Source: Bispira polyomma
Taxonomy: Eukaryota
Assembly (NCBI GenBank): GCA_965649765.1
Contig: OZ287756.1
Coordinates: 48,732,001-48,796,000 of the forward strand
Reading direction: 5' to 3'
DNA: 64,000 bases
Shown here: piece after piece, positions 38,201 through 62,200 of the stretch
Layout of the letters: each line of letters begins with the position of its first letter
Numbering within the stretch: the stretch's first letter is position 1
Program-made: the position numbers

Positions 38201-41200
38201 GAATCTCTCTACATGAAAGTGAACTTGACTCAACAGAGTTCTACTTAAAGGGGTCCAACTGTACATTGTATTATAATCATATTATAATAAAACACAAATC
38301 TGTACAGTGAATATTGTAAACTTATAAAGATTCTTGCCTCTGCTGGGATTAGAACTGGAGCTCTCTGGATCTTGAAATTAATAGTCCAGTGCGCTAAAAG
38401 TTGAGCTAAAGGGGAAACTCTGGAAGCCTGAGTGTTTAATGTGCTGATATACATGGATATTACATGCCTCTACCTCACAAAGACCTGACCCCAGGTCTTA
38501 TACTACTACCACATTGACTCTACTAACTCTCTTGGCTTTTAGGAGGGCAGGAATTTTCCACTGATGTCCATCATGTAAACCACAGGAAGAACTTGGCTCT
38601 AATTGTTAATTAATCCTTTCAACCATAAGAGAAAACTAACGCTGAAAACGGAAGGAAATTTCCGGATAGCAGGAGTCACTAAAACATACACCACAGACTA
38701 TTTCTAGCATTTTATAATGGCCTTGCGTATCAATTTTTTTAAACAAAGGAGTTTGGTGTATTGAAGACTTCCTTTTGTGAAAAAACTGAAGGAAACATTA
38801 AATAATATATTTTGGGGTGTCGACTGCTTACCGACACACATAAATTCTGGGAGTAACAAAATGCCGTTGTTTGGTTGCTGACAACATAGGGGTCGAAAGG
38901 GTTAAACACAGACTAAGGGGGTCGTGTAAATAACAGTGTTCTGCATACAAAAGGGTAATTGAAAAAATTATAGGATGTATTAATAAAACAAGCTAAGTAA
39001 CGCACAGCAAAGGGAAATAAAGTTCTCTAAGATTGCAAAACTTCAATTAAAATTAAATTTTAAATTCTTAGTTATAATTATTGTCAAAAAAGGATTCCAT
39101 CGATGGATATTGTTTGTGGAGAGTATTTGTTTTCTTGGGTCGATGAAGGTATAAATGGGTTTACTGGTCAGCCAATGGAATTCGCCACTTCCCAGCGAAT
39201 TTCGCCACCTAAAATTAACTAATCTATAAACTAATTTTATGCAATTTAATGAATGTAAATATCACTAAATGTTTAAAAGGGTTGTATTTCAGGAAATTAA
39301 TGGGATAGTTTGTCAAAAACGTCAACTGGCAATATTAACTGGCTGGCGAAATTCACTGGTTGACCAGTTATAGTTAGATCTGAAATATCTGGAGTTTTAC
39401 ATTGCAAAGCTCTACAGCCTTGAAGTAGACTGATATGTTTAATTTGGAACTTTCGTATAAGACTGGATGACCTCTTATGTGACACAGAAAGTGTTTAAAG
39501 TAATATTTAACTCAGAAGAAAACATTCAAATTTAATGAAATTTGATGTGTGTCTACTGTTTTATATTAAAAATACTTTTATATGAACTTTGACCTGTTTT
39601 GTGAACTTTTAAATTAGACAAACAAAAATTTGACTCCACCGATTTTCGTGTAGCATACTTACATAGGTTTGTGCAGCATTAACAACTTAAAGTAACTTAT
39701 AACAAATAATTCTCTTTAACAAATATGTTTTATTTTGGTAATAAATTAATACAGACATTTTATATGCAATATTTTATGTACATGTATTTCAATAAAGCAG
39801 GTGCTGTCACAGACATATCACTAAGTAGCTATGACACAGAATTATGTAAGTCAGTTAAAATACCAATGTGTTAAAGCAGTAAATGTTACATGCCACTTGA
39901 ATGTACAAGCTCAGTAGAAGTCCTATTTCTGAGACTCGGACAATCACAAGACAGCCAGAGTTTCTATATCTTCACTACAGTTTGGCCTGCCATTCCTCAT
40001 CTGTCTTGTAAACTTCTTCATTCTCGTCACAATGTTTCTCTTCCTGTTTCTCTCCATGACAACATTCTCTTGTTGTCGTCTGTACTGCTTGTTGGGTGTT
40101 CTAAAGTCTGAGGAGTAAGCACTGTCATTGGACACTGCCCTGTCAGAGTCTTGGTCACTTCCTGCATCCAGTCTCACATTGGACTGCTGCTGCTGGTCAA
40201 TACCTGCAGCAGAAGCAGCTGATGATGGTGAAGAGATCACCTGACTACTACCATGTGTTCTGTTGAAGTCAGTAGGATGTTCACAACCACTGGGTTCTTG
40301 TCTAAATAATGTGGTTCCATTCCTCAGACTCGTATTGTCTAGTTCTACACTCCTGTCTGTGTACTTAGATGACCTCTTCCTGGAACACATGCTTGGTCTG
40401 ACAATGGCTGAGAGTTCATCCTGATCCTTACCCTTCTGACTCATCTGCTGTTGTTGTTTCACTGAAGCAGATCTCTGTACTTTGACTCTCTGGGGTCTGT
40501 GTGTACTAGGTGTGTGTAATGCCTTCACTGCTGGACTTTCTCTCAAGGACACAGACCTTCTGGCTTTTGTTGTTCTTTTCATCTGATGAGAATGCGGAGT
40601 CTGACAGAGGAAAGGAAAACACAGTAAATCCACAGCCACTGGACTGGAAGAGTGTGTCTCTCTAGATGTACAGCAGTCCGATGATTTCGCATTACTGATG
40701 TCCTCTGCTAAGAGTGCACTTGCACTTAGCTCAGGGACAGGCGTACTTGTACCTTTTGGTTCAATATGCATGCACTTGACTCGATCATCCATCCCATTTA
40801 GTGTCTCTGTTCCTACCATGTTTTCTGGTATGGGAGTGCTTGTATATCTTGGTATATCTGCAGAAGTGAATTCAAACAGTTCTTCTTCGGTGCATGTGTA
40901 CTTTGCCTCAGTGCATGTGTACTTTGCCTCAGTGCGTGTGTACCTTGCATTAGTACTGGTATATTTAGAAATCTTGTCAGTCATCTCATCACAGCCAATG
41001 GTGTTGTATCTTCTGTCACCTGTCTCTTCATCTTCCATGGGTATTGGGGTACTTGTATACCTTGGAATCAGCTGACTCACATCATTACTAGCCTTACTGA
41101 TGACAATCTTCTTTGGACTGTGGATCACATAGGTTACATCTTGGTTGGTGGTAGGGACTGGTGTGCTGGTGTACCTGGGTTCAAACTGGGGGCTGGTTTC

Positions 41201-59200: not shown

Positions 59201-62200
59201 ATTAATGATCTAAAGAGTTTTAAAAATAATTAATAGTAATTGAACTGGATAAATATGTCTACAATAGAACCTGACTTTGTATCGATAATACAATGTTCGT
59301 ACAGGAATTGCTATTGAAAAGGGAAATAAGGCTAAAAATAAATGGAAGTAAAAGTTTATACTTAAACATAACATTTTATTTTAACAATTATAAATATATA
59401 CACATTATATACTAATTTACACAAGTTCATATAATAGGATTGCTTTTTTACACAAATTTACATCATGGTAAATAAATTGAGAAAAGACTGCCTCACAGTT
59501 CCAGTATTGCACTCAACCCAACAACTAAAAACAAAAACAATATTGCACTGAATTTCCTCAGCCTGTTAACAATACTGTATAATATTAACAAGTCAAATCA
59601 ACAAACACCTGGCATGTGGGTCAACAAACAAACTACATATAAACAAGCAATGTGTCTTTTTTTTTTACAACACAGCCAATGTCTCCATCTTTAGCACAAC
59701 TTGAGTAAATCAATAACAGCATAATAACAATATATACAGACTCCAGTATAGACACTAGCAGTCATTTACAACACAGCCAATGTCTCCATCTCTCCACAAC
59801 TCTCACTTGATTTCCTCTGTAGTTGTTTACAGTACTTCTTCAGTTTACTCAAGATGGACCTTTTCTTGGACTTCTCCATGGTAACCACAGCTTCCCTAGT
59901 GACTGTCTCCCTGCTCAGTGGCTTCTCCATGAAAGAGGTCACATCAGAATCCACAGACACTTGTAAACACTTGTTTGTGTTTAGTCTGACTGGTGAGAAT
60001 TTACTGGACTTAATGGATGACCTGACCACTGGTTTACTGGCTGAACATTTAATACAAACACAACCTGCTGAGGTAAGGAAGCTCTTTCTTCACAGCACTG
60101 GTCTCTTTCTGAGGACTGGCTTCTTTCCCAATACAAGGAGGTCTGGCTCCTAATGGTGGAGAGTTAATGTGTGAGGAGTTTGTCTGTTGTAGACTACTGG
60201 GATTATACAGGGATCCCACCTCTAAAGCCATAGAGTCACATGAGTCATTGAAGTTCAGCACTGAGCTGACTGTGTCTGAGATGGCTCTCTTCAGGACGAC
60301 TTTCTCTGGTGTAGATAGAGCCACCATGGTAACCTCCTCCATGCTGAGCTGAGAATGATCCTCCTCACAGAACACGCTACTACTGTCAAACTGGAGTTGA
60401 CAGACGGTGGTCTCTTGAGTGTCTAGGACTGTTTGAGTGGTGGGTTGGTACCCCTGTTTGGTCGGAGTACTCCTCTGTGGGTACACCATGGTACTAGAGA
60501 AAGGTCCAATAGTCAGGTCACAACACACACCAGAGTCACTGGTTAAGCTCTCCACTGAGCCACTCCTACTGGTCATCTCAATGCGGCTCATGTCCCCTAG
60601 GTCAGTGAGGGTGGGTACTAGACTCGGGGTGGGCATGTACCTCCTGGGGGTTAGTCGGTGCATCTTCTGAGACTTCTTCTGTGCACAGGAACAAGGGGTA
60701 AAGCTGTAGTTGTGGGAGGAAAGATTGGCTGTTCCAGCAGTTGAACTCAGGCTGTTGTCGCAGAGGGGGCACTCAACTTCTGCAAAATACAATTAGATAT
60801 AATTAAGTAAAATGTCTAATATAATTAAATACTAATCCATTCATACATGGCATTTGGTATAAATAATGCGAACCACTTACTATTTTACAAGAATTTTTTA
60901 TAAAGTTAATGTGTAAGTATATATCTTTAAATAAGTTAAATTGTTAGATATATAGAATGTAAGAGTAATTTGTCTGTTATATTTCAAACAGTTAACTGTT
61001 TTTCCCCCACTCTATTTGGTGTACTCTTTACTTTGAATATAAATAACATTTTAATATTTTAATAAATATAAGAAAAACAAACAATTTCAATTTTTTGTTT
61101 GGTAAAACTTTGATATACAATTGGTGCAATAAATAAATATATCAAAGTAATACATTAAATAAATAGAAGTCTATTTGCCATTTTTGTTGGAGTTGTCCTC
61201 TTCCTGCAGTTATCTCTGTGACAAGTGGCAGCCATGATTTTAGTTGGATACTACAGTGTCTTTTTAAAAATTTATATAATTGTAATAAATGAACAACTAA
61301 TGAAGTAACTCTTGTAAATCTCTCTAGATATTCTCTTGTAATAAAACTATCTGTGTGTAATAAATAACAAGAAGCAACTGATGGAGAAGTAATCCAACTG
61401 CTCTACTATTTATAAGTCATACTACTTCCATCAATGATTCAGTAGAGATGACAAGTTTGTTAGCTTTACACTCACACACTGGTCAGTTTGACTAGACTGA
61501 CCACCTAACAAACATGTCAGTCATTTGTCCACTGCTAACTTGGCTGTTGATCCACTCCCACTAGAGATCAGCCACTGATGTGAGAGTGTGTGCTAAGCAC
61601 TAATTGGAATTACTACCTACTTAGTAGTCCAGTGTGGGGGAAGGAGGATTAATTAAGAGGGAGGGATATCTCAATTAAGTGCAATTGTAACTTCAGAAAA
61701 ACAATAATTACATAAATACATTTAAGTTTTAGATATTATGTTAAATTTTTACTATCTGTACATTTCTTGATATCTCACAAAAGAACTCCTTTATCTTTAC
61801 TGATTATTAAAACTCTAATTTGAAAAATTTTAATTATGTTTTTACATAAATGTACCTACGTTTTAGATATTGATTGATAGGGGTGTATTATTGTGTAGAT
61901 ACCTTATTCCCTTCATTTCGATTTCAGTAAAATGTCTGTGAAATATAAAACTTTGTTAATTTTGATAATTACTTGTAATTGTAGATTTCCTATTAAGTAG
62001 ATAACTGTGTCAATTAACAACCACCTGCTATGATATAACTTTTGTTTTTAAAATAGACATACAAGTCCTTTTGTAGCTGGCCAATTTCATATTTTTATGT
62101 TTACTTCTTGTAATAATATAATTCATATTATTACATATTGTTATAATAAAAAAAATAATAAAAATATAAATATATAAAAATCCATTTAAGTAGACCTCTG

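What the first reader, a model, noticed from the sequence alone, without database searches (positions are those of the whole stretch)
39944..61235. Cluster of four paralogues of an unrecognised SLiM-rich protein family ending in ETLAVL
Seen: paralogue A (about 458 aa) is otherwise hard to align to B/C/D (about 350 aa), yet shares N-terminal LTP(S/R)RY, S-T-P motifs, a DS(G/A) motif (SDSGV; NDSAYSS), a basic amphipathic segment (RNIVTRMKKFTRQM versus RSILSKLKKYCKQL) and the exact tail C.E(D/-)(I/M)ETLAVL*. All four have a TATA box and no intron or one short intron. Established: S-pT-P is the Polo-box docking consensus and a CDK site; DSGxxS is the beta-TrCP degron; hydrophobic C-termini can bind PDZ or similar domains. 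Inference: a lineage-specific family of disordered, rapidly inducible, short-lived regulators (possibly cell-cycle or early-embryo genes). I cannot assign it to a named family.
Basis: partly seen in the sequence, partly recalled or inferred. Interest (0 to 1): 0.75.

Follow-up and report, generated by a model that had tools for sequence, protein, structure and literature searches.

The report
Unnamed disordered-protein gene family cluster
Four neighbouring genes belong to a real, conserved but unnamed family of mostly unstructured proteins that share one tail, yet only one of the four copies here is intact.

Summary
The four loci exist and are related. Only A (39944-41723, minus strand) is intact and ends in ETLAVL in frame. 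B has an in-frame stop 8 codons before the tail. C has one frameshift before the tail and an ~860-bp insertion in its leader. D has lost its 5' end and has two frameshifts. B, C and D are young duplicates (Ks 0.06-0.09, Ka/Ks 0.16-0.38).

The family is real. A profile found 56 cluster representatives among 1.84 billion proteins, nearly all ending in TLA(V/I)L. The tail follows a basic helix and an SDx(T/S)xFMxxP motif. No Pfam, PDB, Atlas or literature match was found. AlphaFold2 predicts disorder apart from the basic helix.

New here: B, C, D and 29 of 57 relatives carry a conserved octapeptide, RPPCIG(Q/K)E, that fits every published rule for a tankyrase-binding motif.

A carries three RYTSTP repeats and DSAYSS. 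Function is inferred only, and the taxonomic range could not be determined.

The parts
41963..41970 (-). Gene A TATA box (TATAAATA)
   Evidence: read
41712..41723 (-). Gene A exon 1 coding part (4 codons, MAKK), followed by a GT donor
41309..41711 (-). Gene A intron, 403 nt, GT..AG with a polypyrimidine tract. The ORF-called N-termini of relatives P0001, P0004 and P0008 look like read-through of an acceptor at the same place (inference).
39944..41308 (-). Gene A exon 2 (454 codons + stop): the intact A-type member, ending in ETLAVL
   Evidence: P0001: 46% identity, 100% coverage, E 6.2e-88
41159..41176 (-). First of three RYTSTP repeats in A. The others are at 41045-41062 and 40832-40849. A fourth STP is in KGTSTPVP.
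40890..40948 (-). 21-bp tandem repeat (2.8 copies) inside the A coding sequence, giving the repeated 7-residue unit EAKYTCT
40109..40126 (-). DSAYSS in A, a variant of the DSGxxS-type degron with A in place of G
39995..40051 (-). Basic helix of A (residues 420-438 of exon 2, net charge +9). It is the only confident element of the AlphaFold2 model (pLDDT 77-95).
39947..39961 (-). TLAVL C-terminal tail of A
39729..39734 (-). AATAAA downstream of A
43968..44338 (+). Gene B promoter and leader block homologous to that of C, with TATATAAG at 44199-44206
44340..44399 (+). 23-bp tandem repeat (2.6 copies) in the B leader. C has 3.6 copies at 53684-53766.
44411..45469 (+). Gene B (B-type), intronless. 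It has 344 codons, then an in-frame TAG, then METLAVL + TAA in the same frame: one premature stop.
45092..45115 (+). RPPCIGKE in B, an octapeptide fitting the tankyrase-binding-motif rules. The same octapeptide is in C and D.
45287..45316 (+). SDVTSFMEKP motif of B (family motif SDx[ST]xF[MLF]xxP)
45368..45424 (+). Basic helix of B (KKRSILSKLKKYCKQLQRK, net charge +9)
45449..45501 (+). 27-bp tandem duplication that repeats the tail-coding 21-mer in the B 3' UTR
45652..45657 (+). AATAAA downstream of B
49668..51125 (+). Reverse-transcriptase gene of a retroelement fragment lying between B and C. Its frame is interrupted once. Described only.
   Evidence: RVT_1, E 5.9e-20 and 6.4e-06
52452..52816 (+). 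Gene C promoter and leader block (83% identical to B's), with TATATAAA at 52691-52698
52813..53675 (.). Insertion of about 860 bp splitting C's leader from its coding sequence. Short inverted ends and a 5-bp flanking duplication were seen by eye (MITE-like).
53778..54821 (+). Gene C (B-type): one 1-nt frameshift near the 3' end. The tail is readable only in another frame, ending at 54817.
54973..54978 (+). AATAAA downstream of C
59766..60780 (-). Gene D (B-type, inverted): 5' end missing (homology starts at 60780) and two 1-nt frameshifts. The tail is present in another frame.
59665..59685 (-). Second copy of the tail-coding 21-mer, 101 nt downstream of D's tail at the end of the duplicated block, followed by a run of A

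Best explanation
The locus is a head-to-head and tail-to-tail cluster of an unnamed, conserved family of intrinsically disordered proteins. SHOWN: the family is defined by a C-terminal module of about 65 residues. The module has an acidic, phosphorylatable motif SDx(T/S)xFMxxP(L/M)C..V(T), then a strongly basic helix (K/R)(K/R)S(I/L)..KLKK(I/F)GK(Q/H)(L/I), then the free C-terminus phi-x-T-L-A-(V/I)-L. The window holds one intact member of an old A-type subfamily, plus three young copies of a B-type gene. As assembled, each B-type copy has lost the in-frame tail or more. INFERRED MECHANISM: these are linear-motif hub proteins. The C-terminal module docks an unknown conserved partner through the helix and the free hydrophobic C-terminus, perhaps switched by phosphorylation of the acidic motif beside it. 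The variable disordered body carries turnover and regulatory motifs. In B-type and about half of the family that motif is RPPCIG(Q/K)E, which would recruit the ankyrin-repeat clusters of tankyrase, leading to poly(ADP-ribosyl)ation and possibly degradation. In A-type they are repeated RYTSTP sites (proline-directed kinase and Polo-box docking type) plus DSAYSS (degron-like). My confidence differs by part: real unannotated family, about 0.9; one intact and three damaged copies as assembled, about 0.85; the tankyrase or phospho-degron mechanism, about 0.3.
For: Family. Outside homologues P0001-P0005 have E 6e-88 to 6e-15. A profile of 7 sequences found 56 representatives at E<=1e-3, 14 at <=1e-10 and 4 at <=1e-30 among 1.84 billion proteins, mostly matching at their exact C-terminus. 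Column shares in the 54-sequence alignment: S 52/54, D 51/54, F 51/54, P 50/54, T 50/54, L 51/54, A 53/54, V/I 52/54. The tail TLA[VI][LVI] at the end is in 44 of 57 and SDx[ST]xF[MLF]xxP in 45 of 57, against 0.0 in shuffles. Coding constraint. Ka/Ks is 0.38, 0.16 and 0.38. All four indels inside the B/C/D coding sequence other than the lesions are multiples of 3 (3, 6, 6 and 9 nt). Disorder plus one helix. In A, only residues 420-438 are helical (pLDDT 77-95). In P0003 there are helices at 151-165 and 304-324 (pLDDT 91-92) and a pLDDT peak of 82 over the RPPCIGQE block. Tankyrase motif. The published rule is R-x-x-[small hydrophobic or G]-[D/E; V, Q, Y, I, C allowed]-G-[not P]-[D/E] (passages of PMC6082341). 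29 of 57 relatives plus B, C and D match it, against a shuffle mean of 0.29 and max of 3. Variation at position 5 is only I/V/E/D/Y, position 8 is always D/E, and positions 2-3 vary freely, as the rule predicts. A-type motifs. R.TST[PQL] is in 7 of 57 (15 sites against 0.4) and DS[GA]-phi-x-[ST] in 13 of 57 (against 0.8). P0001, P0002 and P0004 are each reported on a single contig of the same length, 1,094,732 bp. This suggests the subfamilies are also linked in another genome (inference).
Against: No binding, modification, expression or localisation data exist for any member. The tankyrase-motif enrichment reflects one conserved motif inherited by descent, not independent events, and another partner could read it. 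A itself, and 28 of 57 relatives, lack the motif. P0004 and P0017 have L at position 5, which is not on the allowed list. A's DSAYSS has A where the canonical degron has G. S[ST]P presence by member (30 of 57) is not above the shuffle maximum (30); only the site total is. The helix's amphipathicity is only moderate (moment 0.50; 10% and 3% of shuffles reach it). All three B-type copies here lack the in-frame tail, so in this genome the B-type function may not be served from this locus at all. The lesions may also be assembly errors. A's link to the rest of the family is weak when its own subfamily is left out (14 bits, E 0.003-0.004).
Confidence: 0.5

Rival explanations
1. All four genes are intact in the animal. 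On this view the stop in B and the single-base shifts in C and D are assembly or consensus errors or a rare haplotype, and the cluster is four working paralogues.
For: Three of the four frame-breaking differences are 1-nt indels, and one sits in a run of C (6 in B and C, 5 in D), a typical consensus error. Ka/Ks is well below 1, and other indels are multiples of three, so constraint lasted until very recently.
Against: B's lesion is a substitution, not an indel. D's second shift sits in a patch of several clustered substitutions. D's homology to B and C stops at 60780, with unrelated AT-rich sequence upstream and no in-frame splice model. C also has an ~860-bp insertion in its leader. Every one of the three copies is hit.
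Confidence: 0.2
2. The family is real but the linear-motif reading is wrong. On this view the basic helix plus the hydrophobic C-terminus is a membrane, nucleic-acid, calmodulin or nuclear-import element. The match to the tankyrase rule and the degron-like strings are coincidental readings of motifs that serve another partner.
For: The helix has net charge +9 in 19 residues and is moderately amphipathic. Nothing in the data names a partner. Short motif rules match many sequences by chance. Half of the family lacks the octapeptide.
Against: The pattern of allowed and forbidden residues at all five constrained positions follows the published rule across 29 diverged relatives. The last five residues are near invariant, which suggests a specific pocket rather than general membrane affinity.
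Confidence: 0.3
3. One reading: cell-cycle or early-embryo regulators that are docked by Polo kinase at S-pT-P and destroyed through a beta-TrCP DSGxxS degron.
For: A has three RYTSTP repeats plus a further STP, and DSAYSS. The A-type relatives P0016, P0020 and P0030 have the same pair of motifs. The logic matches known Polo-primed degrons (recalled, not tested).
Against: It applies to the A-type subfamily only. B-type has no conserved DSGxxS, and B's DSGVCC lacks the second S/T. A has A in place of G. There are no expression or timing data.
Confidence: 0.2
4. The repeated ORFs are derived from a transposable element, or are chance ORFs in repeated DNA.
For: The cluster is embedded in repeat-rich DNA, with a reverse-transcriptase fragment between B and C, and the copies are 90-93% identical.
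Against: No transposable-element or viral domain was found in A-D or in 54 relatives. Only four copies are present, each B-type unit with its own promoter block. Ka/Ks is below 1. The diverged relatives keep a protein-level tail while synonymous sites differ (A against B tail codons).
Confidence: 0.03

Closest known systems
Tankyrase-binding-motif (TBM) clients such as AXIN1/2, 3BP2, TRF1 and MERIT40 (named in PMC6082341; passages read)
   Same: There is a disordered-region octapeptide with R at position 1, a small hydrophobic residue (C) at 4, I/V/E/D/Y at 5, G at 6, no P at 7 and D/E at 8. As the paper describes for one AXIN motif, a less favoured residue is accompanied by an acidic position 8.
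   Different: There is no sequence homology to any known client (no Pfam or PDB match). Binding has not been tested. The motif is absent from A and from 28 of 57 relatives.
Polo-primed beta-TrCP substrates (for example the Emi1, Bora, Wee1 and Claspin class; recalled, no call)
   Same: The A-type members combine repeated S-T-P sites with a DS(G/A)-aromatic-x-S/T string in a disordered protein.
   Different: A has A in place of G. There is no F-box, zinc-binding or kinase domain. No homology was found. B-type lacks the degron.
[quoted passage not shown]
   Same: These are conserved short motifs in otherwise unalignable proteins with no assignable family. Such genes were found by a similar logic.
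   Different: Lophotrochin has a DUF4476 N-terminal part according to that paper, and no such Pfam match appears here. The taxon range of the present family is unknown.
C-terminal peptide ligands of PDZ-type domains (consensus recalled)
   Same: The free C-terminus is near invariant and hydrophobic.
   Different: Position -2 is A, not S/T, so this is not class I. A class II fit (phi-x-phi) is doubtful. The conserved T is at -4.

Membership tests
Unnamed 'TLAVL-tail' family (defined here by profile A3) | Free C-terminus T-L-A-(V/I)-(L/V/I) | tested here: met
   A has it in frame. It is in 44 of 57 relatives. In B, C and D the codons are present but sit behind a stop (B) or in another frame (C, D).
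Unnamed 'TLAVL-tail' family (defined here by profile A3) | Basic helix (K/R)(K/R)S(I/L)..KLKK(I/F)GK(Q/H)(L/I) just before the tail | tested here: met
   The columns are 30-44 of 54 conserved. AlphaFold2 gives helix 420-438 in A and 304-324 in P0003. It is present in A, B, C and D's downstream frame.
Unnamed 'TLAVL-tail' family (defined here by profile A3) | SDx(T/S)xF(M/L/F)xxP motif upstream of the helix | tested here: inconclusive
   It is present in B and C, and in 45 of 57 relatives. The regex was run on D's 247-aa upstream ORF only, and D's downstream-frame segment was not tested. A has DSAYSSDFRTP aligned there, a divergent form shared with P0001.
Unnamed 'TLAVL-tail' family (defined here by profile A3) | Profile score when the query's own subfamily is left out | tested here: met
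   B, C and D score E 1e-17 to 1e-38 without P0002 and P0003. A scores E 0.003-0.004 (14 bits) without the A-type sequences. There were no false hits among 1521 segments.
Tankyrase-binding-motif proteins | R at position 1 and G at position 6 (essential per PMC6082341) | tested here: met
   B, C and D have RPPCIGKE. A has none.
Tankyrase-binding-motif proteins | Position 4 small or hydrophobic; position 5 D/E or V/Q/Y/I/C; position 7 not P; position 8 D/E favoured | tested here: met
   B, C and D have C, I, K, E. 29 of 57 relatives fit, against a shuffle mean of 0.29.
Tankyrase-binding-motif proteins | Motif lies in a disordered, accessible region | tested here: met
   There is no secondary structure around it in the P0003 model.
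Tankyrase-binding-motif proteins | Physical binding to tankyrase ankyrin-repeat clusters, and PARylation | not testable with these tools
   No call addresses this.
beta-TrCP DSGxxS phosphodegron substrates (consensus recalled) | D-S-G-x-x-S/T | tested here: not met
   0 of 4 window proteins have the strict form, against 7 of 57 relatives (shuffle 1.1). A has DSAYSS (A for G). B has DSGVCC, with no second S/T.
Polo-box docking / proline-directed kinase sites (consensus recalled) | S-(S/T)-P core present and conserved | tested here: met
   A has 4 STP + 2 SSP. B, C and D have 2 STP each. The family has 57 sites against 26.8 (max 42) in shuffles, and the aligned STP columns are 28-39 of 43. Phosphorylation is not testable.
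PDZ class I ligands (consensus recalled) | S/T at position -2 of the C-terminus | tested here: not met
   Position -2 is A in 53 of 54.
Any Pfam-A family, including transposable-element and viral domains | Match above the gathering score | tested here: not met
   0 of 4 window proteins match (three sub-threshold hits, E 0.022-0.1). For 54 relatives, 4 families were each hit by a single member only.
Lophotrochin (PMC7441323) | N-terminal DUF4476 similarity | tested here: not met
   No such Pfam hit was found. The feature is taken from section 6 of the paper.

The most novel reading that the evidence does not exclude
A previously undescribed, widely conserved animal protein family is defined by a new C-terminal docking module (acidic SDxTxFMxxP, basic helix, free TLAVL end). 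About half of its members, including the B-type genes here, would be dedicated tankyrase clients or adaptors through a conserved RPPCIGQE motif. This would link poly(ADP-ribosyl)ation to an unknown partner that reads the TLAVL tail.
Probability: 0.2. Interest if true: 0.7.

Novelty: new variant of a known kind. Interest (0 to 1): 0.5.

Why it matters
If true, it adds a conserved, unannotated family to the short list of proteins built almost wholly from linear motifs. It offers an unusually invariant free C-terminus (T-L-A-V/I-L) whose reader domain is unknown. It also gives a concrete prediction that can be checked by structure: that these proteins are tankyrase clients. For genome annotation, it shows that three of the four copies here should not be annotated as intact genes without read-level or transcript evidence.

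Tried and rejected
Pfam on A-D and on 54 relatives gave nothing above cut-off. The PDB by profile gave 0 at E<=1.

The ESM Atlas on P0003 gave a best score of 0.84, which is lead-level only. On the C-terminal 75 residues of P0013 it gave no usable hit, and the Atlas's own model has pLDDT 0.34.

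Literature searches: 'ETLAVL' gave 0 papers. 'TLAVL' gave 12, none about such a family judging from the search listing only. RPPCIGQE, PPCIGQE, CIGQE, FMEKPL, FMDKPL and QTLAVL gave 0.

The third protein search, with alignment A3, saturated at 8000 candidates and returned only three proteins I already had. No tool returned names or taxa, so the phyletic range is unchecked.

I did not run fold search, because both models are low-confidence outside one helix. I did not use the genome-contig scan, because that collection is bacterial and archaeal. The supplement of PMC7441323 (its list of 37 genes) is closed and may bear on whether this family has already been listed.

Rfam and tRNA scans of the window gave 0.

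Rejected readings:
- Introns to bridge the lesions in B and C.
- A B-type DSG degron.
- A class I PDZ ligand.
- Transposable-element origin.

The minus-strand ORFs at 47191-48436 gave no Pfam hit at E<=5. One gave an unrelated PDB hit at E 0.022. My recollection that one of them looks like a retroelement endonuclease is therefore unsupported.

One search was a faulty script of mine (wrong frame, then a crash). Its B-C figure is void and is replaced.

Before alignments A3 and A4, I dropped 4 of the 57 relatives by eye: P0027, P0037, P0054 and P0056, whose ends are deviant or extended. The motif counts use all 57.

Full report
1. WHAT IS IN THE SEQUENCE

The window has no N. I took nothing in it for human. 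Within 39944-61235 there are four loci of one protein family.

A lies on the minus strand.
- It has a TATA box at 41963-41970.
- Its first exon is 4 codons (MAKK, 41712-41723).
- A 403-nt GT..AG intron follows.
- Exon 2 is a 454-codon ORF (39944-41308) that ends ...CSEDIETLAVL and a stop.

B lies on the plus strand at 44411 and is intronless. After 344 codons it reads TAG where C and D read GAG. METLAVL and TAA follow in the same frame.

C lies on the plus strand at 53778 and has a 1-nt deletion about 24 codons before the end. The ORF therefore runs out in another frame, and the tail is readable only in the shifted frame.

D lies on the minus strand, and homology to B and C begins only at 60780. 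D is one base short in a run of C near its start. It also has a second 1-nt shift inside a patch of clustered substitutions. As a result its C-terminal third, with the tail, is in another frame.

The only GT after that ATG gives a stop codon when joined in phase to the cag acceptor (read).

Exon 2 alone was searched, aligned and folded.

2. IS IT MORE THAN CHANCE?

Yes.
- The 21-base tail-coding string occurs 5 times (up to 3 mismatches allowed), against 0 in 100 shuffles.
- tblastn with five outside homologues hits only the four loci.
- A family profile hits 6 of 1521 six-frame segments, all inside the four loci.
- A against B is weak: BLASTP E 1e-5, 18/58 identities at the C-terminus.
- With A and its orthologue left out of the profile, A scores 14.5 bits (E 0.003). 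With three more A-type relatives also left out, it scores 14.0 bits (E 0.004). In both runs it is the only hit besides B, C and D at E<=10.

3. THE DUPLICATES

B, C and D are 90-93% identical over about 1.1-1.4 kb. Nei-Gojobori estimates on shared single-frame segments:

| Pair | Codons | Ks | Ka/Ks |
|---|---|---|---|
| B-C | 308 | 0.086 | 0.38 |
| B-D | 224 | 0.083 | 0.16 |
| C-D | 222 | 0.062 | 0.38 |

The four coding indels other than the lesions are 3, 6, 6 and 9 nt. The copies were therefore under protein-level constraint until recently.

B and C share a promoter and leader block that includes the TATA box. That block is very well conserved. In C an insertion of about 860 bp, with short inverted ends (seen by eye), separates the block from the coding sequence.

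A and B are head to head, about 2.3 kb apart. C and D are tail to tail. AATAAA signals follow all four.

Whether the lesions are real or are consensus errors cannot be decided here.

4. THE FAMILY OUTSIDE THE WINDOW

Word-indexed searches found five homologues:

| Protein | Query | Identity to query | E-value | Type |
|---|---|---|---|---|
| P0001 | A | 46% (full length) | 6.2e-88 | A-type |
| P0002 | B | 60% | 9.3e-92 | B-type |
| P0003 | B | 55% | 3.9e-74 | B-type |
| P0004 | B | 33% | 1.2e-27 | third type |
| P0005 | B | 33% | 6.2e-15 | third type |

All five end in (Q/E)TLAVL. P0001, P0002 and P0004 are each reported from one contig of the same length (1,094,732 bp). This suggests the subfamilies are also linked in another genome (inference).

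A 7-sequence profile scored against 1.84 billion representatives gave 56 proteins at E<=1e-3, 14 at <=1e-10 and 4 at <=1e-30. Most matched at their exact C-terminus.

In a 54-sequence alignment (4 of 57 relatives dropped by eye for deviant ends) the conserved columns are as follows:
- S 52/54, D 51/54, T/S 52/54, F 51/54, M 44/54, P 50/54.
- A basic stretch, for example K 44/54 and L 42/54.
- The tail: T 50/54, L 51/54, A 53/54, V/I 52/54, L 47/54.

Over all 57 relatives, 44 end in TLA[VI][LVI] and 45 have SDx[ST]xF[MLF]xxP. Shuffles give 0.0 for both.

A's nearest kin beyond P0001 are P0016, P0020 and P0030. They share R.TSTP repeats, DSAY(T/G)S and the helix variant.

5. STRUCTURE

AlphaFold2 with the 54-sequence alignment gives these results.
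- A: mean pLDDT 51.9. The only element is helix 420-438 (pLDDT 77-95). The tail is at 72-79 without secondary structure.
- P0003: mean pLDDT 57.0. There are helices at 151-165 and 304-324 (pLDDT 91-92), a short turn in the FM motif, and a local peak of 82 over the RPPCIGQE block.

The helices carry net charge +9 in 19 residues. Their hydrophobic moment is 0.50, reached by 10% (A) and 3% (B) of shuffles.

6. WHAT IT MAY DO

The conserved internal motif G(E/A)RPPCIGQE.SP has column shares R 38/50, C 31/50, G 34/50 and E 35/50. It fits the published tankyrase-binding rule R-x-x-[small hydrophobic or G]-[D/E]-G-[no P]-[D/E]. In that rule C is allowed at position 4, I, V, Y, Q and C are allowed at position 5, and D/E at position 8 compensates for weaker positions (passages of PMC6082341).

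29 of 57 relatives, plus B, C and D (RPPCIGKE), match the rule. A does not. Shuffles give a mean of 0.29 and a maximum of 3.

Among the matches:
- Position 5 is only I, V, E, D or Y.
- Position 8 is only D or E.
- Positions 2-3 vary freely.

This is one inherited motif, so the count is not a probability. It is the pattern of tolerated residues that argues for the reading.

A-type proteins instead carry repeated RYTSTP and DSAYSS.

The reader domain for the TLAVL end is unknown. A class I PDZ ligand is excluded because A occupies position -2.

7. COMPARISON WITH WHAT IS KNOWN

- No Pfam family matched.
- No PDB relative was found.
- No Atlas lead reached 0.9.
- No paper contains the motif strings.
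- Lophotrochin and trochin (PMC7441323; abstract and section 6 read) are analogous cases, but lophotrochin's DUF4476 part is absent here. That paper's gene list is in a closed supplement.
The 'lophotrochozoan' label is therefore untested.

8. VIRUS-LIKE STRETCHES (DESCRIBED ONLY)

Inside the coordinates, between B and C, lies a retroelement reverse-transcriptase gene (49668-51125, plus strand). Pfam RVT_1 matches it at E 5.9e-20 and 6.4e-06, and its frame is interrupted once.

Outside the coordinates, ORFs on the minus strand at about 14.9-18.9 kb include two matches:
- A chromodomain (E 2.5e-9).
- A sub-threshold match to the adenovirus-type protease family (E 0.077, below the cut-off).

I did not analyse them further.

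9. VERDICT

The family is real, conserved and unnamed. The local cluster is one intact gene plus three damaged young copies. The best functional reading is a linear-motif hub with a new C-terminal docking module and, for B-type, a tankyrase-binding motif. This reading is inferred, not shown.

Noticed in passing
window 45449-45501 (+) and 59665-59685 (-): The tail-coding 21-mer is duplicated in the 3' UTR of B as a 27-bp tandem copy. It appears again 101 nt downstream of D's tail, exactly where D's homology to B and C ends, followed by a run of about ten A. C has a single copy. The cause is unexplained; it may be microhomology at a duplication breakpoint.
   Followed up: partly
window 49668-51125 (+), and minus-strand ORFs at 47191-48436: A retroelement reverse-transcriptase gene (RVT_1) lies between B and C, with its frame interrupted once. 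Three consecutive minus-strand ORFs nearby have no Pfam hit at E<=5. Described only.
   Followed up: partly
window about 14875-18913 (-): This is a run of minus-strand ORFs. One has a sub-threshold match to the adenovirus-type protease family (E 0.077) and one has a chromodomain (E 2.5e-9). It may be a fragment of a virus-like or integrase-bearing mobile element. Described only; I examined no breaks.
   Followed up: partly
window 25808-26398 (-): This 196-aa ORF has only a sub-threshold Pfam hit (Orthoreo_P10, E 0.0028, below the cut-off). By recollection it looks like a retroelement Gag-type protein. That is not tested.
   Followed up: no
window 52813-53675: An insertion of about 860 bp sits in C's leader. 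Short inverted ends and a 5-bp flanking duplication were seen by eye (MITE-like).
   Followed up: partly
window 44340-44399 and 53684-53766 (+): A 23-bp tandem repeat sits in the leaders of B (2.6 copies) and C (3.6 copies), just upstream of the ATG.
   Followed up: no
window 40890-40948 (-): A 21-bp tandem repeat (2.8 copies, 94% matches) inside A's coding sequence creates a repeated 7-residue unit. This looks like a recent in-frame expansion.
   Followed up: no
window 56833-57080 and 45965-46225: There are two tandem arrays: a 16-bp unit in 15.8 copies, and a 136-bp unit in 1.9 copies, in the spacers of the cluster.
   Followed up: no
window 28790-29686 (+): This 298-aa ORF contains a repeated (D/E)(I/L)PNK(G/E/V)(I/T/V)DVL(A/P)A-like unit. 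I did not search it.
   Followed up: no
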